IMG/VR virus record: IMGVR_UViG_3300045993_000417
Location: 1 to 64,000 of that record
DNA length: 64,000 bases
Origin: a virus
Direction: 5' to 3' (one strand)
The notes below the pieces were generated by a model. The model saw only the letters and a list, made by a program, of their open reading frames with translations. It was not told where the DNA came from and did no database searches. Numbering within the stretch: position 1 is the stretch's first letter; each line of letters opens with the position of its first letter. Of this stretch, positions 45,707-51,950 are shown piece by piece. The translations under genes and the position numbers were made by a program.

Positions 45707-47044
45707 CTACCAGTCAATAGCTGGCACTGGTTCTACTACATTGTTTTGAAGAGTATGCATCGGTGCTGGTTGTACTTCATCTACTCTTAGTAACGCTGGT
45801 GCTATAGCAGGGCTAAGGTCATTAACCTCAGCCACTAGAACAACACCCTCATTGTTTTGATAATCCCTACTGACAACTTGTAACGGTGGAGCATCTTCGA
45901 CGATCTTTTTAGATCGCTTAGACGGGCTTTTGACCCCTACCACTGCAGTCTCTACGACTTCAGCGGCCACCACTTTGATTTTGTCAGTAATAGGAAGTGC
46001 ATCAGCCAATTCCTTAGCCTTAGCTTTCTCAGCAGCGGCCTTAGCCGCTTTCTCAGCCTTAATACGAATCACTTCTTCCTTCTGAACAATACCACTCGCC
46101 ATAGTCATAACCAGGTCGGTCTGACTATGATCAAAACCACGCGTGCTATTACCAGTTAACTCCTTAAAGTTATCATGTGCTTTAACCTTCTGGACGCTGG
46201 CTGTTACGGACAGGAAATGAGACATCGTATTGAACGTAGTGGAAGATCCTCCGGCCATGTCCACGAACACCTTATTGAAGTTCATAGGTTTACGGTAGTA
46301 ATAGTTCTGAACTACAGCAATTATGTTCGTAGCAACCAGAGCGTTGATAGCCAAGGTTTGATCAAGATCAGCACAACTACCTAGTCCTGGGTTATCCGCC
46401 AAGCTCAGGTAGTGATTAACATCCATTGGGATGAATGTAATGTCGTCTACGTGAGTGATCAGCTTAGGTAACTTTGCTACCAACGAGCTGTCCCACTCAT
46501 TAGGGTGTATGGCTACAGCTGGATTAAAGAAGTTGACTTGTCCAAAGTTGTCCTCATTACCTGAATCAATGATGAACACGTTTTCCTGCTGTTGGCCATG
46601 ACCTATGATTTCAAGGGCATTGGATAGGATCTTTCTCCTAGCTACTACAGAGTCAACACACATGATAATCATGACTGGTTCATTTACCAGGTTAACGTTC
46701 AATTCTCTTTTGAAGAACTGATAGATATCTGCGGGACCTTCAATGGCAGTAATCATTGGGGTAATGGACAGGCCGTACGCTTTGCTATAGCGTTCAGCCA
46801 ATACCACAGCCTTATTCTTACTGATGTCCTGACGAATGAAATTCTGGCGAGCCAGGTTCTTTTCTTCAATTATGTCGAAGTCACATAGAACGATGTTAGG
46901 AGTACCTAACCATCCACGTGGGGAATACTCACGAGTGATTGATCTCATGAACTGTGCCAACAGGGGAACTAGCCTTGAGCCAGTTCCACCGCAGCCTACT
47001 ACGATGATGTTATGCGGGATTGATGATGGGATGAAATTAAACAA
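45707..47044 (-). CDS. E1-like ThiF-family ubiquitin-like activating enzyme (PRTRC ThiF-like)
   Basis: VVGCGGTGS, DFDIIEEKNLARQNF, CVDS..AR, DSGN, and GSCA with the candidate catalytic Cys. Confidence 0.9.
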   Translation of the reverse strand: MFNFIPSSIPHNIIVVGCGGTGSRLVPLLAQFMRSITREYSPRGWLGTPNIVLCDFDIIEEKNLARQNFIRQDISKNKAVVLAERYSKAYGLSITPMITAIEGPADIYQFFKRELNVNLVNEPVMIIMCVDSVVARRKILSNALEIIGHGQQQENVFIIDSGNEDNFGQVNFFNPAVAIHPNEWDSSLVAKLPKLITHVDDITFIPMDVNHYLSLADNPGLGSCADLDQTLAINALVATNIIAVVQNYYYRKPMNFNKVFVDMAGGSSTTFNTMSHFLSVTASVQKVKAHDNFKELTGNSTRGFDHSQTDLVMTMASGIVQKEEVIRIKAEKAAKAAAEKAKAKELADALPITDKIKVVAAEVVETAVVGVKSPSKRSKKIVEDAPPLQVVSRDYQNNEGVVLVAEVNDLSPAIAPALLRVDEVQPAPMHTLQNNVVEPVPAIDW

Positions 47045-47092
47045 GTGCCTCTCCTTTTTAATTGATAGGAGGGGCGTTTAACCCCTCCACAT

Positions 47093-47959
47093 TCACATGC
47101 CGTTTTCTGCTACTTTCTGTTGATACTTGAGAGGTAGAGATCCAAACAAGTCCTTAATCATATCTAACTGCTTTTCGTCTTCCATCAACTGGAATAGATC
47201 ACTGATAGCTTCTGACAAGAGCTCATTCTTACCTACTAAAGGGGCCATACAATCGTTAAGCAACGTGAAGGCGTTAGCCACCTCGCTACCGTATTGTATA
47301 GCCAGGTATGAGTATTGGTCGCTATCTACGTTACCAATGTCACTACCATGGAACCTACCTACAGGATCCCCCTCTTCTACCTCTCCGTAGTTGTTAAAGC
47401 CGTCTACGTTGTCACCCTCTAATTGAGTCCTTGAGTGCCCGTTTGTTTGCTCGTTTATCTCGTTTCGAGAGCCAGCGGGACCCAGAGGGAGCTTCCCCTG
47501 AGCCCCCGATGGAAAACCCGCTGGGAGCCCTCCTTCGTAACCTTCGTACATCTCGTCTGCTGATGAGTTGAGAGCACGATTTGGGAGAGAGCGCAAACCA
47601 GGTCCTGCACGTTCACCAGAAGGTGTATGAGCATTTGGACGAGGACGACCATACTGATACTGCTCAAGATGATCCCACTTACGGCCACCTTGGTGTGTAC
47701 CGTGCTTACCACCGTATGAGCCATAGGTAGTTACATTGACGTTATTCAACCACTCTTCAGGTACGTCTACCACACGGTCTGCTGGTGTGTGGAAGATATC
47801 TTGGAGTTTCACTTCATACTTCTGTTTGTAGTAGTTGAAGCGGATCTTTACTTCTGGTTCTTTGTCTTTGAGTTTTCCTACAACACCTGAAAAACCGATG
47901 GCGTTAAGGTCATCTCGATCATCCGTGCCTGAAAAGAAACTCCCCATTGTGTTATGTGA
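47093..47959 (-). CDS. JAB/MPN+ metallo-isopeptidase, exon 2 (PRTRC protein A-like)
   Basis: SHNTMGSFFSGTDDRDD completes the H-S-H...S..D motif when joined to exon 1. Confidence 0.85.
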   Translation of the reverse strand, partial: SHNTMGSFFSGTDDRDDLNAIGFSGVVGKLKDKEPEVKIRFNYYKQKYEVKLQDIFHTPADRVVDVPEEWLNNVNVTTYGSYGGKHGTHQGGRKWDHLEQYQYGRPRPNAHTPSGERAGPGLRSLPNRALNSSADEMYEGYEGGLPAGFPSGAQGKLPLGPAGSRNEINEQTNGHSRTQLEGDNVDGFNNYGEVEEGDPVGRFHGSDIGNVDSDQYSYLAIQYGSEVANAFTLLNDCMAPLVGKNELLSEAISDLFQLMEDEKQLDMIKDLFGSLPLKYQQKVAENGM

Positions 47960-48301
47960 CATAACGTGTTATGGTTTTCTTTTTAATTACAAAACCCTTG
48001 AAATACTAACTTAAACGTAAATACGATAAGTTTTTACCGATAGTAAATCAAGATCAGACTATATCATCATCTTCAGAAGTATTGCCTGAAGAGTTGGGCG
48101 CTCGTGTTCCTATTATTGCATAGACTGCTCAAGGATTAGTCGTTACACTTTCTTGCTACTTCAATGTCTTTTCGCAAGCTTAGCACGGGATTATGTGTAT
48201 TGGACACGTTTTCCCCGTTAGCAGGATTTCTCCTACACCTCAGTTGTCTGAGTTCACCCAATTTATTCACTACAGATCGCTCCGTAGGTCCACTCACTTT
48301 A
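47960..48301 (-). mobile_element. Group I intron (342 nt, no homing ORF)
   Basis: The 5' exon ends in U; the intron begins UAA and ends in G. P1 UCCAU/GUGGA; P10 GUGA/UCAC; P3 UUGGGUG/CGCCCAA; Q AAUCCCGUGC; R GUAACGACUA; S GAUAUAGUC. Confidence 0.92.
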
Positions 48302-48763
48302 ATGGATATCCACGATAACACTAGTTCCATCGGGGATGTAAGCCCAGTCGTAACTAGCACTACCTTTAGAAACAGTCTGAGGGGGAACACCGATGTGGTA
48401 TCCACGCTCAGGATTATAAAGGACATGAATCATGGCCTCTACTTCTGATTTCTTTACTTCCATGACCTTCTTGAAGAAGGCGATGATTTGTTCCCAGATC
48501 TCGTACTGAATCTTACCCGCTGGTAAAAAGGCAATTTCTTGCTTGGTCATTTCAGCAGGAATAACCTCAGACGCAGGACGAACGTACCCAGGGATGGAAT
48601 CCACTTTCAACCTAATGAAACGGTTCTCACCTCGGAATACGTGTCGCTTGAAAAACTCATCCTTTACTATGGTATAAATTTCTTTATACCCCTGTGCAAC
48701 TGCGTCCGTCTCTTCTTGAAGACTCGCACAGATGCAGCTAATGCTGGGCATTAATATTTGCAT
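48302..48763 (-). CDS. JAB/MPN+ isopeptidase, exon 1 (spliced product 442 aa)
   Basis: SEVEAM (catalytic Glu), VPPQTVSKGSASY, IVDIH. AGGAG SD. Confidence 0.85.
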
Positions 48764-48827
48764 CCTCCACTCCTTAAGTTAAGCTACAGGTGTTACTATA
48801 CTCTTATACCAAAAACTGCCGTTTTGT

Positions 48828-49634
48828 TTAACGACGTAGGTGCTCGTATGGAAATGGTTTGTTATCTTTAGCCAAATCACGCAGGTGGTGATACCACTGT
48901 CTGGGCGAGCCAAACTTAACGATGTTCACCTTACTAGAGATACCTAGGTCATTACTGAACGGAGATTCCCATAGGAAGTTATAGTAGTAGTCAAGACCAC
49001 GTAGGTTGTTATCCACAAACCTAGCAGGCATCTTGTTACCACCATAACACATGTTACATGAGTCATATGAGTTGGTGAACGGCATAAGGGAAATACCCTT
49101 AGTGTGATCAACTCTAATGATTTGAACATCCGTTGGTAGTTTATTAACAGGAGAGTCCGTGACGGTGTAGTATGCGTTCGTGTTAACCCAGTCATTCTTC
49201 TCACGTTTGAGTTTGTGACTGATGATGATGTTAGGCACTACGATGTCGAACTTCTCCGTCTTACCTTCACCCATATACTGGAAAGGCTTAATACCTTCTC
49301 TGTAGTAGCAAGATATATCCAACTCAGTAGGTCCTACCGCTATGAAGAACGCACTGGTAGGAAGTGTCAATGTCAGTTTACTCTCTTTTGAAAGAGTGTT
49401 AGTGGCTTTGAGTACTGAGTTGATGAAGTCCTCATAGGACACGGTCTTGGTGATTCCACCAACCCCCTTAACCACTACGGAGTCGTCAAGTAGTACCACT
49501 TCTTGTCCAGACACCTCTACCATTGCTAGCAAGGATCTCTCTAGATCAGAGAGTGAAGTTTCTTTGACCATTTTAGGAACAGCCTCTACCACCTCTACTT
49601 CTGGGCGTGAGCCCTCAATAAATATGTCGTTCAT
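48828..49634 (-). CDS. Prokaryotic E2-like conjugating enzyme (PRTRC protein B-like)
   Basis: PNII...LMPFTNSYDSCNMCYGGN..P...FWESPFSND resembles the PF.N....G.(I/M)C.G E2-family motif; operon context agrees. Confidence 0.75.
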   Translation of the reverse strand: MNDIFIEGSRPEVEVVEAVPKMVKETSLSDLERSLLAMVEVSGQEVVLLDDSVVVKGVGGITKTVSYEDFINSVLKATNTLSKESKLTLTLPTSAFFIAVGPTELDISCYYREGIKPFQYMGEGKTEKFDIVVPNIIISHKLKREKNDWVNTNAYYTVTDSPVNKLPTDVQIIRVDHTKGISLMPFTNSYDSCNMCYGGNKMPARFVDNNLRGLDYYYNFLWESPFSNDLGISSKVNIVKFGSPRQWYHHLRDLAKDNKPFPYEHLRR

Positions 49635-49897
49635 TATACGAAATCCTCTGAGGAAAAATTGGAGTAATGTTTAGCTTTTTGGAGAGTACTAATCACGCTG
49701 TTAACTACGTTTCTCAAGTGGAGACTACTCTCAAACTTGAAAGTACTAGTAAGATCCTTAACACAAGAAATTACGTCTTCACGAGTCTCAATGTTCCTTA
49801 TTACGCAAGCGTCTTTCACTACCTGGATAGCATCGGTAGAAATGTCTGAAGCGTTGTTCAACTCTAAAGCCATATTAGACAACATAGGCATTTGCAT
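49634..49897 (-). CDS. Hypothetical protein of the Ubl operon
   Basis: Translationally coupled on both sides. Confidence 0.6.
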   Translation of the reverse strand: MQMPMLSNMALELNNASDISTDAIQVVKDACVIRNIETREDVISCVKDLTSTFKFESSLHLRNVVNSVISTLQKAKHYSNFSSEDFV

Positions 49898-50675
49898 TGT
49901 AGTGACCCTTTCTGCTTAGCGTTTTGATGACTTTAGGTATGTCATCAAAGAATGTGAATAGATTGAATGAGGAGCACTCTGGATGAGAGGAGTAGGTATT
50001 TATTTGATTTTCAGCTGAGTTAAACTCGTATCTGTTTCCATCAGATTTATACCAAGATCCTAATTCTAATGTGAGGCGGATTGTAAATAGAATCTGGATA
50101 TTCTCCGTTGTGGTAGTAGGTATGTCCCCGAATATGTCTGTTCTACGGAAGGTCTTAATACGTAGTGGGCATCCATTAATGGCACACTTGTGATTGATGT
50201 ACCTAGCATACCTCTTTACGGTTGGGAAATCACAAGTATCATCGGTATCTTCCAAGAATGATGACACACTTTCAAAACTTAAGTTAATGTAGCTAGAGTT
50301 TTTATCACTTATATATCCATACTCTACTAGGTCACTATGAGGTATACTCTTAACCACTTTGAGTAGAGGTAGATCCAGATGGAACCTATTGTAGTGAAGC
50401 TCTATCTCCGCCTTCTCCATGAAGTCCATGTAGGGTACCTTCTTAAGGACTTGACCGTACAAAGAGGTATAGATCTTTTTAAAAAACTTCCTAGCGTTGG
50501 TTGAATTAACTCTGATGTCAGCCACTACCGTGGAGGAGCTGGGGATAATGCCATACTCCTTACTCTTAGAAGTAGTGAACTCTAGGAGCTTCTTGATTTT
50601 TGTTCCACTATACTCCGTTACTAAACTCGTCAAAGATGATAAGCTATTTTTTAGAAAAATCTTTACTGTTGCCAT
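49875..50675 (-). CDS. Hypothetical protein of the Ubl operon, 266 aa
   Basis: GAGGAG SD. Confidence 0.7.
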   Translation of the reverse strand: MATVKIFLKNSLSSLTSLVTEYSGTKIKKLLEFTTSKSKEYGIIPSSSTVVADIRVNSTNARKFFKKIYTSLYGQVLKKVPYMDFMEKAEIELHYNRFHLDLPLLKVVKSIPHSDLVEYGYISDKNSSYINLSFESVSSFLEDTDDTCDFPTVKRYARYINHKCAINGCPLRIKTFRRTDIFGDIPTTTTENIQILFTIRLTLELGSWYKSDGNRYEFNSAENQINTYSSHPECSSFNLFTFFDDIPKVIKTLSRKGHYNANAYVV

Positions 50676-50749
50676 GATTGAATTCTCCTCTTACTAAAAA
50701 AAACGGGTCCAGCTGGACCCGAACCCGTTTCTCTACCTGATACTAGGGA

Positions 50750-50965
50750 TTAACCCTTTGTACCTGTCTTTGGACGGAAGGTGATGACGCGAACTTGGCC
50801 AATGCCATCACGTGTCACGATTTCTTCCGAAGATTGATAGCCGGACAGACCTGGGATCTGGCTGGAATACGCTGCGATAACCTGAGAAACGCTCAATGAC
50901 CCAGGGACCTGGTACTCGGTATCAGTTGCGGTAATTACGATGTTTGTTTGGACGATCTCTGCCAT
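50750..50965 (-). CDS. Ubiquitin-like beta-grasp protein (PRTRC protein C-like)
   Basis: 71 aa, beta-beta-alpha-beta pattern, ends ITFRPKTGTKG with a free C-terminal Gly. First gene of the operon, followed by a hairpin at ~50697-50730. Confidence 0.8.
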   Translation of the reverse strand: MAEIVQTNIVITATDTEYQVPGSLSVSQVIAAYSSQIPGLSGYQSSEEIVTRDGIGQVRVITFRPKTGTKG

Positions 50966-51093
50966 TTTGATTCCTTTTTCGTTAACGATTTAAAAAGTAT
51001 GAGCTAAAAGGAAATGCTACTAGCCGGCTAATAACTATGCTTTTCCCGCTCAATACTGTTATACCACAGTATCACAATTTATTGAAAGTCGGG

Positions 51094-51160: not shown

Positions 51161-51295
51161 ATGATAAGAACTAACTTCTACTTCCCACAAGTAATGATTG
51201 ACAGATTAAAGGCCGTCAAAGAGCGCACCGGCATACCTATGTCTGAGTTCATCCGTAGGGCTATTGAGCGTGCATTGACTGAGGCTGGGGTTTAG
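51161..51295 (+). CDS. Ribbon-helix-helix DNA-binding protein, 44 aa; not in the ORF track
   Basis: MIRTNFYFPQVMIDRLKAVKERTGIPMSEFIRRAIERAL is a CopG/Arc-like pattern. Confidence 0.8.
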   Translation: MIRTNFYFPQVMIDRLKAVKERTGIPMSEFIRRAIERALTEAGV

Positions 51296-51296
51296 C

Positions 51297-51950
51297 GTGG
51301 CTAACCTCAACTCCAGGGGCATCGACTTAGATACCCATAAGAAAATTTGTAATACATGTGCAGTAGAAAAGCTAGGCACTGAATTCAGCAAAGCATCCAA
51401 TAATAAAGATGGCCTTGTTTGTAAATGTAGGCCCTGTGTCAAAGAATGGGATAGAAAACATCGTGAGGCCAATCTGGAAGAGATTAAGGCTTACGATAGA
51501 GCTAGATATATAAGAGATAGAGAGAAAAGGTTAGCCCTATCTAAACATTGCAATAGCAAGCGTAAACCTATAAAAAAAATACAGGACGCTGTACGTTATA
51601 ACTTAAATAGAGAGGCGGCTTTATTAAGAGCAGCAGTTTATAAAAGGGAAAATAGGGGTAGGTATAATGCTTTAGGCAGAGCTAGAGAACTTAAAAAAAT
51701 CCAAGCCACGCCTTCATGGTCAGAAAGGGAAGAAATAATATCTCTGTATAACGAGGCCACTAGGCTGACGGTTGAAACAGGTATTCCTCATCATGTAGAT
51801 CATATTATACCCATCACCCACTCATTAGTTCAGGGCCTTCATGTACTAGCGAACTTGCGCATACTTACCGCTAAGAAAAACATAGAACGTGGAAATCGTA
51901 TAGACTTAGATAAATACGATCATTTTTTACCTAATGAATTACAACCATGA
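51297..51950 (+). CDS. HNH homing endonuclease
   Basis: KICNTC...CKCRPC; QATPSW; HVDHIIP...GLHVLANLRILTAKKN. Confidence 0.88.
   Translation: MANLNSRGIDLDTHKKICNTCAVEKLGTEFSKASNNKDGLVCKCRPCVKEWDRKHREANLEEIKAYDRARYIRDREKRLALSKHCNSKRKPIKKIQDAVRYNLNREAALLRAAVYKRENRGRYNALGRARELKKIQATPSWSEREEIISLYNEATRLTVETGIPHHVDHIIPITHSLVQGLHVLANLRILTAKKNIERGNRIDLDKYDHFLPNELQP

What the first reader, a model, noticed from the sequence alone, without database searches (positions are those of the whole stretch)
45707..51065. Phage-encoded ubiquitin-like conjugation operon (Ubl, two unknowns, E2, JAB, E1)
Seen: one - strand unit behind GGTATAA motifs (51059, internal 48804) encodes a 71-aa Ubl ending GTKG, two unknown proteins, an E2-like protein with a Cys motif, a JAB isopeptidase and a ThiF/E1. 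Known: this set matches the bacterial PRTRC-type Ub-like systems, and related bacterial E1-E2-JAB systems (CBASS Cap2/Cap3, Bil) act in antiphage defence. Inference: a phage carrying the whole cascade as an early unit may tag host or phage proteins, or counter host Ubl defence. The Ubl already ends in Gly, so JAB is probably a deconjugase. The two unknown ORFs are candidate E3/substrate adaptors.
Basis: partly seen in the sequence, partly recalled or inferred. Interest (0 to 1): 0.88.

Follow-up and report, generated by a model that had tools for sequence, protein, structure and literature searches.

The report
Phage-core ubiquitin-like tagging operon (PRTRC-like)
A large uncultured wetland phage, like its whole lineage including culturable Salmonella and Vibrio phages, carries an apparently intact six-gene kit for attaching a small ubiquitin-like protein to other molecules; what it tags is unknown.

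Summary
On the minus strand, 45707-51065 encodes a 71-aa Ubl ending in Gly, two unknown proteins (266 and 87 aa), a Prok-E2_D-type E2 with an invariant Cys, a JAB/JAMM peptidase and a ThiF-type E1.

One correction: a 342-nt group I intron splits the JAB gene inside its HxH zinc motif.

The operon is a core module, not a stray accessory gene. Of 39 terminase-anchored relatives with enough flank, 37 have it beside the terminase gene. The other two show signs of it further away.

The Ubl is confidently predicted as a beta-grasp. It is homologous to PRTRC protein C and shares its unusual G-x-K-G tail. Relatives encode di- and poly-Ubl precursors or capped forms, so JAB must also mature the tag. 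A hairpin plus T-run follows the Ubl gene in every lineage.

The system is PRTRC-like (Iyer class 6d) but fails PRTRC membership. It has no ParB, scores below the model cut-offs, and has unrelated proteins in place of E/F.

Target and role remain untested, and I found no publication on this system.

The scan has found and followed up the same cassette on other phage DNA several times, with the same reading.

The parts
51059..51066 (-). Promoter-like extended -10 element (TGGTATAA), about 94 nt upstream of the Ubl start
   Evidence: Exact motif and its context. The motif is enriched: 27 copies against 11.9 expected. Function is inferred.
50750..50965 (-). Ubl, 71 aa, born mature with the C-terminus ...KTGTKG-stop
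   Evidence: AF2 with a 19-sequence alignment gives pLDDT 89.6, a beta-beta-alpha-beta-beta fold and a floppy tail. Best structural neighbours are MoaD (Z 5.3), a ubiquitin-like protein (Z 5.2) and Ub/SUMO/ISG15/FAT10 (Z 4-4.6). hhalign to PRTRC protein C gives 90.8%. T7, F63, G68, K70 and G71 are invariant.
50696..50721 (-). GC-rich hairpin followed by T8: intrinsic terminator or attenuator between the Ubl gene and the enzyme genes
   Evidence: Found by the terminator scan. All 13 relatives examined (14 lineages with the window) have a hairpin plus T-run at the same place, with lineage-specific stems.
49875..50675 (-). Unknown protein A (266 aa), a lineage-specific partner
   Evidence: Present between Ubl and E2 in every relative examined. 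The family has only 187 cluster representatives among 1.84 billion proteins and no Pfam domain. The AF2 model (pLDDT 71) has no convincing fold match.
49634..49897 (-). Unknown protein B (87 aa), small, with a conserved C-terminal ...[ED]DF[VI] end
   Evidence: Alignment of 14 orthologues. No family, profile or Atlas match.
48828..49634 (-). E2-like protein (Prok-E2_D type) with catalytic-candidate Cys196 in the motif P-F-x-N-x-Y...N-M-C-Y-G-G-N
   Evidence: Pfam PF14460 at E=3.7e-5. There are 31 family members, including this one, and most carry PF14460. P185, N188, Y190, C196 and G198 are invariant.
48804..48811 (-). Internal promoter-like element (tttttGGTATAAg) before the JAB gene
   Evidence: It matches the extended consensus shared by nine minus-strand sites in the window.
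48302..48763 (-). JAB/JAMM peptidase, exon 1: N-terminal alpha+beta domain, catalytic Glu109 and the first His of HxH
47960..48301 (-). Group I intron, 342 nt, without an ORF
   Evidence: Rfam RF00028 matches the full model at 29 bits, E=1.6e-5, below the gathering score of 50. In P1, UCCAU pairs with GUGGA, giving U.G at the splice site, and the intron ends in G. Removal restores DIH|SHNTMGSFFSGTDD, colinear with uninterrupted orthologues. A 91-nt DNA contig from another wetland sample skips exactly these 342 nt.
47093..47959 (-). JAB/JAMM peptidase, exon 2: second His, Ser164 and Asp167, then a long variable tail
   Evidence: PRTRC_A at E=2.3e-9. E109, H154, H156, S164 and D167 are invariant across phage, cellular and canonical PRTRC_A sequences.
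45707..47044 (-). E1: ThiF-type adenylation domain (about residues 1-280) plus a variable charged tail
   Evidence: Pfam ThiF at 47 bits and PRTRC_ThiF at 81.7 bits. Invariant residues include GxGGTG, R24, D55, D57, K62-N-L-x-R-Q, D131 and C224 in the motif SCADL[DN]Q.

Best explanation
This is a working, phage-owned ubiquitin-like conjugation cascade of the PRTRC/class-6d kind.

Proposed mechanism:
- The E1 adenylates the terminal Gly71 of the Ubl. It may also hold the Ubl on Cys224.
- The Ubl passes to Cys196 of the E2-like protein, which transfers it to an amino group on target molecules, most likely lysines of proteins in the infected cell.
- The JAB metalloprotease removes the tag. In relatives with poly-Ubl or capped Ubl, it also cuts after the G-x-K-G tail to produce the mature tag.
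- The two lineage-specific proteins (266 and 87 aa) are obligate partners, perhaps setting specificity.
- The Ubl is made in excess over the enzymes, because a terminator-like hairpin follows its gene.
- Transcription probably starts from host-type extended -10 promoters. I therefore favour action early or mid infection on host proteins (takeover or counter-defence) over a role in virion assembly.

Shown here: gene content, intact catalytic motifs, the beta-grasp prediction, homology to PRTRC components, and core-gene status in the lineage.

Inferred: every chemical step, the timing and the target.
For: - All catalytic signatures are intact and invariant across the family: E1, E2 Cys and JAB E...HxH...S..D.
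- The Ubl is a confident beta-grasp with a flexible tail ending in Gly.
- The Ubl is homologous to PRTRC protein C and shares the G-x-K-G end.
- Relatives carry di-Ubl, capped Ubl and 3-5-unit poly-Ubl, all with the same tail at each junction. This is how conjugatable modifiers are encoded.
- The same six-gene order occurs in 26 IMG/VR loci, in Vibrio phage D69 and in Salmonella phage Arash.
- 37 of 39 terminase-anchored loci with enough flank have E2+JAB+E1 next to TerL, down to 47% TerL identity.
- There is one E2-like copy in each of four >=92%-complete relatives and in the Arash record.
- A hairpin plus T-run follows the Ubl gene in all 14 lineages.
- Promoter-like TGGTATAA elements precede the Ubl and JAB genes.
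- Operon proteins were detected by mass spectrometry in Arash preparations (PMC10585845).
Against: - There are no expression, splicing or biochemical data for this phage, and no RNA run holds it.
- The closest structural neighbours of the Ubl are sulfur carriers (MoaD), with only moderate Z of 5.3.
- The window's E2 scores just under the Pfam cut-off (24.0 against 25).
- The role of E1 Cys224 is a guess. Related bacterial Bub systems work without cysteines (PMC11601596).
- Nothing identifies a target. The two unknown proteins have no recognisable fold.
- The Arash 'structural protein' labels come from a preparation that also held ribonucleotide reductases, a DNA ligase, a primase and helicases. 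They show expression, not location.
Confidence: 0.62

Rival explanations
1. Virion-assembly role. The cascade tags the phage's own structural proteins, or cross-links them, as a step in morphogenesis. A loose parallel is the Ubl and JAB modules in lambda-type tail assembly.
For: The operon always sits inside the morphogenesis region. It lies between the terminase/head genes and a conserved block whose Arash homologues are abundant in virion preparations. Operon products were detected in the Arash particle proteome. It is a core gene set of the lineage.
Against: It is transcribed opposite to the late genes, from host-type extended -10 elements. The Arash preparation also contained many replication enzymes, so detection does not place the proteins in the particle.
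Confidence: 0.18
2. Inter-phage competition or defence. Like bacterial Bil, the cascade tags proteins of a competing, superinfecting phage or other mobile element.
For: The bacterial Ub-like conjugation systems with a demonstrated role (Bil, type II CBASS) are antiphage (PMC11601596). A preprint reports PRTRC protein B as a target of a diversity-generating retroelement in a Phocaeicola prophage, which fits a variable target (bioRxiv 10.64898/2026.10.01.756045). Unknowns A and B diverge fast: 50-55% identity between phages whose TerL is 92% identical.
Against: The operon is a fixed core module of every member examined, not a sporadic island. Four of five full-length relatives lack a tyrosine integrase. 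There is no PADLOC match apart from generic E1 similarity.
Confidence: 0.1
3. Sulfur-carrier pathway. The Ubl is thiocarboxylated by the ThiF-like E1 and donates sulfur to a cofactor, tRNA or DNA modification, with JAB acting only as a maturase (as in CysO/Mec+).
For: The best structural neighbours are MoaD. The E1 is ThiF/MoeB-like. JAB maturases of sulfur carriers are known (Iyer et al. 2006, PMC1779556).
Against: An E2-fold protein with an invariant cysteine is always present. The operon has no rhodanese, cysteine desulfurase or sulfur-acceptor enzyme. The tail is KG rather than GG. Poly-Ubl precursors are typical of conjugated modifiers.
Confidence: 0.07

Closest known systems
PRTRC cassette (ParB-Related, ThiF-Related Cassette; NCBIfam TIGR03734-03742), which by gene content appears to be operon class 6d of Iyer, Burroughs and Aravind 2006 (my equation, not stated by a source). 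Example: Cupriavidus taiwanensis plasmid NZ_CP016951.1
   Same: The order Ubl (C), a mid-size protein, E2-like (B), JAB (A), ThiF-type E1 is the same. The Ubl is homologous and shares the G-x-K-G tail. The JAB catalytic residues are identical. E1 and JAB give their best NCBIfam hits to the PRTRC models. The function of PRTRC itself has never been tested (PMC13366799).
   Different: There is no ParB in this record, in four >=92%-complete relatives or in Arash. All scores are below the curated cut-offs. The proteins in place of F and E show no detectable similarity. No His C-terminal to the E2 Cys is invariant, unlike the description of class 6d. The system is carried as a core module by large, mostly integrase-less phages rather than by plasmids or ICEs. 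Some members have poly-Ubl.
Six-gene cellular relatives in a Thermoplasmata archaeon, an NC10 bacterium, Deltaproteobacteria and Myxococcales MAGs (L032, L034, L035, L070, L038)
   Same: They have Ubl ending in G-x-K-G (A-N-K-G in the archaeon), a small protein ending in an aromatic residue followed mostly by an aliphatic one, a mid-size protein, then E2, JAB and E1. They also score below the cut-offs of the PRTRC models.
   Different: The small and mid-size proteins are in the reverse order and show no profile similarity to the phage ones. E1 identity is about 30%.
Bil (BilABCD) antiphage system
   Same: It has separate Ubl, E2, JAB and E1 genes and no E3, and conjugation to protein lysines has been demonstrated (PMC11601596).
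   Different: [quoted passage not shown] Here there is a single ThiF-like domain. No PADLOC hit was found. Bil is host-encoded and acts against phage.
Type II CBASS Cap2/Cap3, and Bub (6E/DUF6527)
   Same: Both use E1/E2/JAB-type chemistry in prokaryotes. In type I Bub, the JAB domain matures a fused Ubl precursor.
   Different: Cap2 is an E2-E1 fusion that conjugates the cyclase itself, with no free Ubl. Bub uses Ser/Tyr oxyesters and a DUF6527 protease. Here E2 and E1 keep invariant cysteines, and no such partners exist.
ThiS/ThiF, MoaD/MoeB and CysO/Mec+ sulfur-carrier systems
   Same: They share a beta-grasp carrier, a ThiF-type adenylating enzyme and sometimes a JAB maturase.
   Different: They have no E2, they have a GG tail, and they have dedicated sulfur-transfer partners.

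Membership tests
PRTRC cassette (NCBIfam TIGR03734-03742) | A ParB-family protein is part of the cassette | tested here: not met
   No TIGR03734 or Pfam ParB_N match in the 84.8-kb record, in four relatives that are 92-100% complete, or in phage Arash.
PRTRC cassette (NCBIfam TIGR03734-03742) | The ThiF-family protein reaches the TIGR03736 cut-off | tested here: not met
   It is the best NCBIfam hit, but scores 81.7 bits against a cut-off of 144.75.
PRTRC cassette (NCBIfam TIGR03734-03742) | Proteins A (JAB) and B (E2-like) reach their cut-offs | tested here: not met
   PRTRC_A scores 37.1 against 101.8 (exon 2 alone). PRTRC_B scores 14.2 against 131.45. The catalytic residues of A are nevertheless identical to a canonical PRTRC_A.
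PRTRC cassette (NCBIfam TIGR03734-03742) | Protein C (Ubl) | tested here: inconclusive
   There is no HMM hit. However, the phage Ubl profile aligns to one canonical PRTRC_C at 90.8% probability, E=1.2e-6, with the G-x-K-G tails in register.
PRTRC cassette (NCBIfam TIGR03734-03742) | Proteins E and F | tested here: not met
   There are no NCBIfam hits. hhalign of the two unknown families against canonical E and F gives probability below 1%.
Pfam Prok-E2_D (PF14460) | Profile match, and a conserved active-site cysteine | tested here: met
   The window protein scores 24.0 bits against a cut-off of 25, which is marginal. Most homologues carry PF14460. Cys196 is invariant in 31 sequences.
JAB/JAMM metallopeptidase (Pfam Prok-JAB, PF14464) | The E...HxH...S..D zinc site | tested here: met
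   E109, H154, H156, S164 and D167 are invariant once the intron is removed. Uninterrupted orthologues score 33-41 bits against a cut-off of 25.
ThiF/MoeB/E1 adenylating enzymes (PF00899) | Nucleotide-binding GxGxxG, an Arg finger and a Mg-binding Asp | tested here: met
   Scores 47 bits against a cut-off of 28.1. GxGGTG, R24, N-L-x-R-Q and D131 are invariant.
Ubiquitin-like beta-grasp modifier | A beta-grasp fold with a flexible C-terminal tail ending in Gly | tested here: met
   AF2 gives pLDDT 89.6 with the order bbabb, and the tail (residues 65-71) has low confidence. The neighbour list is dominated by MoaD, Ub, SUMO, ISG15 and FAT10 at Z 4-5.3, with 59-63 residues aligned. Z is moderate, as expected for 71 residues.
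Bil (BilABCD) | [quoted passage not shown] | tested here: not met
   There is a single ThiF-like domain followed by a low-complexity tail. PADLOC gives only weak CBASS-type E1 hits and nothing for Ubl, E2 or JAB.
Ubl conjugation (function) | ATP-dependent thioester and isopeptide formation | not testable with these tools
   This needs biochemistry or mass spectrometry.

The most novel reading that the evidence does not exclude
A whole lineage of large virulent phages depends on its own ubiquitin-like conjugation system. The system is expressed from host-type promoters and tags host proteins (for example defence or proteostasis factors) with a KG-ended Ubl. This would be the first virus-run protein-tagging cascade described in prokaryotes, and it would give the never-tested PRTRC family a function.
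Probability: 0.3. Interest if true: 0.88.

Novelty: new variant of a known kind. Interest (0 to 1): 0.68.

Why it matters
Every prokaryotic ubiquitin-like conjugation system whose biological role is known (Bil, type II CBASS) is a host weapon against phages. Here the phage owns the cascade, and every member of its lineage that I could examine keeps it. That implies a routine role in infection.

The parent family (PRTRC, class 6d) has been known from sequence since 2006 and has never been tested.

Two culturable members, Salmonella phage Arash and Vibrio phage D69, make the question answerable at the bench.

The KG tail has a practical consequence. Trypsin would leave a single Gly on modified lysines (+57 Da), not the di-Gly remnant that standard ubiquitin workflows look for.

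Tried and rejected
- Megablast of the region against 50,697 phage records: no match.
- Rfam at gathering thresholds: nothing in the window. The intron appears only in the E-value search.
- PHROGs: no family for Ubl, unknown A, unknown B or E2.
- PADLOC: only generic E1 hits.
- E2 family profile against PDB sequences: nothing meaningful.
- Unknown A: Foldseek found no match. VIA-align gave only generic alpha/beta sandwiches at Z <= 6.6. The ESM Atlas gave no usable hit. The profile search found only same-sized orphan relatives without Pfam domains.
- Unknown B: the Atlas gave only weak helical look-alikes.
- hhalign of unknowns A and B against the cellular mid-size and small proteins, and against canonical PRTRC F and E: no signal.
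- Pfam on single Ubl units: only 2 of 19 touch Prok_Ub, at E=0.004.
- Sequencing runs: no RNA holder is listed, only wetland and pond DNA runs, so nothing can be said about expression or splicing.
- Literature searches for a phage-encoded ubiquitin-like system returned nothing relevant.
- I considered reading the Arash 'structural protein' labels as proof of virion packaging. I rejected this because the preparation also held many replication enzymes and the paper's protein numbering does not map cleanly onto GenBank.

Full report
**What is there.** The minus strand of 45707-51065 carries, in transcription order:
- a 71-aa ORF ending ...KTGTKG-stop (50965-50750)
- a 266-aa ORF (50675-49875)
- an 87-aa ORF (49897-49634)
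- a 268-aa ORF (49634-48828)
- a JAB gene in two pieces (48763-48302 and 47959-47093)
- a 445-aa ORF with a TTG start (47044-45707)

The window is part of an 84.8-kb IMG/VR virus record estimated to be 67% complete. A large terminase subunit lies directly to the right (phrog_675, E=6e-47). DNA runs holding the stretch come from wetland and pond metagenomes.

**The enzymes.**
- *E1.* It passes Pfam ThiF (47 bits, cut-off 28.1), and its best NCBIfam hit is PRTRC_ThiF (81.7 bits, below the cut-off of 144.75). In 13 diverse orthologues the nucleotide loop GxGGTG, R24, D55/D57, K62-N-L-x-R-Q, D131 and a cysteine in SCADL[DN]Q (C224) are invariant.
- *E2.* The 268-aa protein hits Prok-E2_D at 24.0 bits (cut-off 25). 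It has 30 homologues in the 5.8-billion-protein set, and most carry PF14460. P185, N188, Y190, C196 and G198 are invariant.
- *JAB.* The gene is interrupted. Exon 1 ends ...VIVDIH followed by TAA, and exon 2 begins SHNTMGSFFSGTDD. Joining them restores the JAMM site, colinear with the uninterrupted genes of phages Arash and D69. E109, H154, H156, S164 and D167 are invariant across phage, cellular and canonical PRTRC_A sequences. Uninterrupted orthologues pass Prok-JAB.

**The intron.** The 342 nt between the exons match the whole Rfam group I model at E=1.6e-5 (29 bits, under the gathering score of 50). In P1, UCCAU pairs with GUGGA, which puts a U.G pair at the 5' splice site, and the intron ends in G. 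A 91-nt contig from a different wetland DNA run joins the two exons and skips exactly 342 nt. This points to an intron-less allele in nature, although it rests on a single short contig. The closest relatives (L004/L005) carry a 1.14-kb version with an antisense LAGLIDADG ORF. It is inserted 6 nt further downstream (DIHSH|NTMG), and its guide sequence is changed to match (GUGGC).

**The tag.**
- An AF2 model built on 19 Ubl units is confident (pLDDT 89.6). It shows two strands, a helix and two more strands, followed by a disordered tail (residues 65-71).
- Foldseek E-values are weak. However, both Foldseek and the exhaustive VIA-align search return lists dominated by beta-grasp proteins: MoaD (Z 5.3), a ubiquitin-like protein (Z 5.2), and ubiquitin, SUMO, ISG15 and FAT10 (Z 4-4.6).
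- The family's hallmark is the tail [KR]-T-G-[TN]-K-G, with K70 and G71 invariant.
- The encoded forms vary:
  - mature mono-Ubl: this window and most relatives
  - head-to-tail di-Ubl: L016, L018, L020
  - mono-Ubl with a 17-23-residue cap: L023, L025
  - three to five units with linkers and a short cap: Vibrio phage D69, L030, L031
- This mirrors eukaryotic polyubiquitin genes. It means the JAB must cut after the tail in those phages, so it is not only a deconjugase.
- In phage Arash the Ubl is present but mis-annotated. A 66-aa ORF ending RRTGTKG lies in another frame of the annotated gp251c.

**Operon layout.** A GC-rich hairpin followed by eight T's sits between the Ubl gene and the next gene. 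All 13 relatives examined have a hairpin plus T-run at the same place, with different stem sequences. I read this as an attenuator that keeps the tag in excess over the enzymes. Both GGTATAA sites are preceded by T, giving TGGTATAA, which is an extended -10 element. The site before the JAB gene also fits a longer consensus (tttttGGTATAAgtat) shared by nine minus-strand sites in the window. This fits host-polymerase transcription opposite to the late genes, but timing is not shown.

**Distribution.**
- The same six genes in the same order occur in 26 IMG/VR loci found with the E2 profile, on contigs up to 185 kb. They also occur in Vibrio phages D69, D181 and D148 and in Salmonella phage Arash.
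- Anchoring on the terminase instead, 37 of 39 loci with at least 7 kb of upstream flank have E2+JAB+E1 back to back with TerL, down to 47% TerL identity. Of the two exceptions, one (L168) has the operon elsewhere on the same contig. The other (L147) shows a Ubl hit at the edge of the flank.
- The genes on the far side of the operon are conserved too.
- Four relatives that are 92-100% complete, and the Arash record, each have one E2-like copy. Four of these five genomes lack a tyrosine integrase.
- The cassette is therefore a vertically inherited core module of this lineage.

**The two unknowns.**
- Both are present in every relative examined, and their families are very divergent: many orthologues share only 10-25% identity with the window's proteins. 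Among close relatives they diverge fast (50-55% identity where TerL is about 92%), as do a few neighbouring genes.
- Unknown A has three conserved helical segments. Its AF2 model is mediocre (pLDDT 71) and has no convincing fold match. The family has only 187 cluster representatives among 1.84 billion proteins and no Pfam domain.
- Unknown B is a small protein with a conserved acidic-aromatic-aliphatic C-terminus (...EDFV).
- Their role as specificity factors is a guess.

**Relation to known systems.**
- A canonical PRTRC cassette on a Cupriavidus plasmid reads ParB-E-C-F-B-A-ThiF. Its protein C ends AAGAKG plus a three-residue cap. The phage Ubl profile aligns to it at 90.8% probability with the tails in register.
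- Cellular six-gene relatives in an archaeon, an NC10 bacterium, Deltaproteobacteria and Myxococcales share the G-x-K-G tail (A-N-K-G in the archaeon). They also have a small protein ending in an aromatic residue followed mostly by an aliphatic one, and they also score below the PRTRC cut-offs.
- By gene content this corresponds to class 6d of Iyer et al. 2006 (Ubl, JAB with an N-terminal alpha+beta domain, E1, E2-like, and a rapidly diverging helical protein; PMC1779556).
- The phage system fails strict PRTRC membership. No ParB is found anywhere in complete relatives, all model scores are below cut-off, and E and F are not recognisable.
- It is not Bil (the E1 architecture differs and PADLOC gives no hit), not type II CBASS (no E2-E1 fusion and no cyclase), and not Bub (cysteines are retained and there is no DUF6527).

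**Literature.**
- I found no paper describing a phage-encoded Ubl cascade of this kind.
- PRTRC annotations have been noted in a Burkholderia gladioli prophage, with the remark that the function has never been studied (PMC13366799).
- A 2026 preprint reports PRTRC protein B as a target of a diversity-generating retroelement in a Phocaeicola prophage. That would fit the E2-like protein contacting a variable target.
- The Arash paper detected operon products by mass spectrometry. The same preparation also held ribonucleotide reductases, a DNA ligase, a primase and helicases, so I take this as evidence of expression only.

**Verdict.** I put a functional conjugation cascade at about 0.6. Within that, I favour host-protein targets over virion proteins, without direct evidence. 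Earlier follow-ups of this scan reached the same reading on other phage genomes; I checked the shared claims independently here.

Noticed in passing
window 47960-48301 (-): An ORF-less 342-nt group I intron splits the JAB HxH motif. It matches Rfam RF00028 at E=1.6e-5 (below gathering), has a U.G pair at the 5' splice site and ends in G. Among the loci fetched, only the window and its closest relatives carry an intron here; all more distant orthologues are uninterrupted.
   Followed up: yes
L004/L005 5976-7116 (also L006/L007): The closest relatives have a 1.14-kb intron of the same family, inserted 6 nt downstream (after the second His codon rather than the first). The guide sequence changes from GUGGA to GUGGC to match the new exon context. 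An antisense 290-aa LAGLIDADG/HTH ORF lies inside it (Pfam LAGLIDADG_1 at 29.7 bits).
   Followed up: partly
window 47958/48301 joint, run X2: A 91-nt DNA contig (depth 6.3) from another wetland metagenome joins the two JAB exons and skips exactly 342 nt. This suggests an intron-less allele in the population. It is a single short contig with only 29 nt on one side, so the evidence is weak.
   Followed up: partly
window 51161-51295 (+): A 44-aa ribbon-helix-helix protein (Pfam RHH_3 and RHH_1, above cut-off) is transcribed divergently from the Ubl operon, just before the HNH and terminase genes. It could regulate either side. tblastn found it only in the closest relatives.
   Followed up: partly
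window 51297-51950 (+): An HNH/endonuclease VII-like gene abuts and overlaps the start of the large terminase gene. Homologues sit at other positions in relatives (for example downstream of E1 in L009, L015 and L016), as expected of a mobile nuclease.
   Followed up: no
window, minus-strand sites 5949, 6456, 11713, 18209, 26553, 29495, 32843, 41669, 48804: These sites share the extended motif tttttGGTATAAgtat (an extended -10 look-alike). Most of these sites lie just upstream of leftward genes, which suggests one promoter class for the minus-strand transcription units.
   Followed up: partly
L002 (Salmonella phage Arash, OQ632216.1), about 105-305: The GenBank CDS gp251c is called in the wrong frame. 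The real gene there is a 66-aa Ubl ending RRTGTKG.
   Followed up: yes
L025 1049-2683 (-): The terminase match in this relative contains four in-frame stops when read straight through. This could be an intron, an insertion or a frame problem.
   Followed up: no
L009, L015, L016, L020, L023: between the JAB and E1 genes: These relatives have a spacer of about 0.55-1.1 kb between the JAB stop and the E1 start, where the window has 48 nt. Its content was not examined.
   Followed up: no
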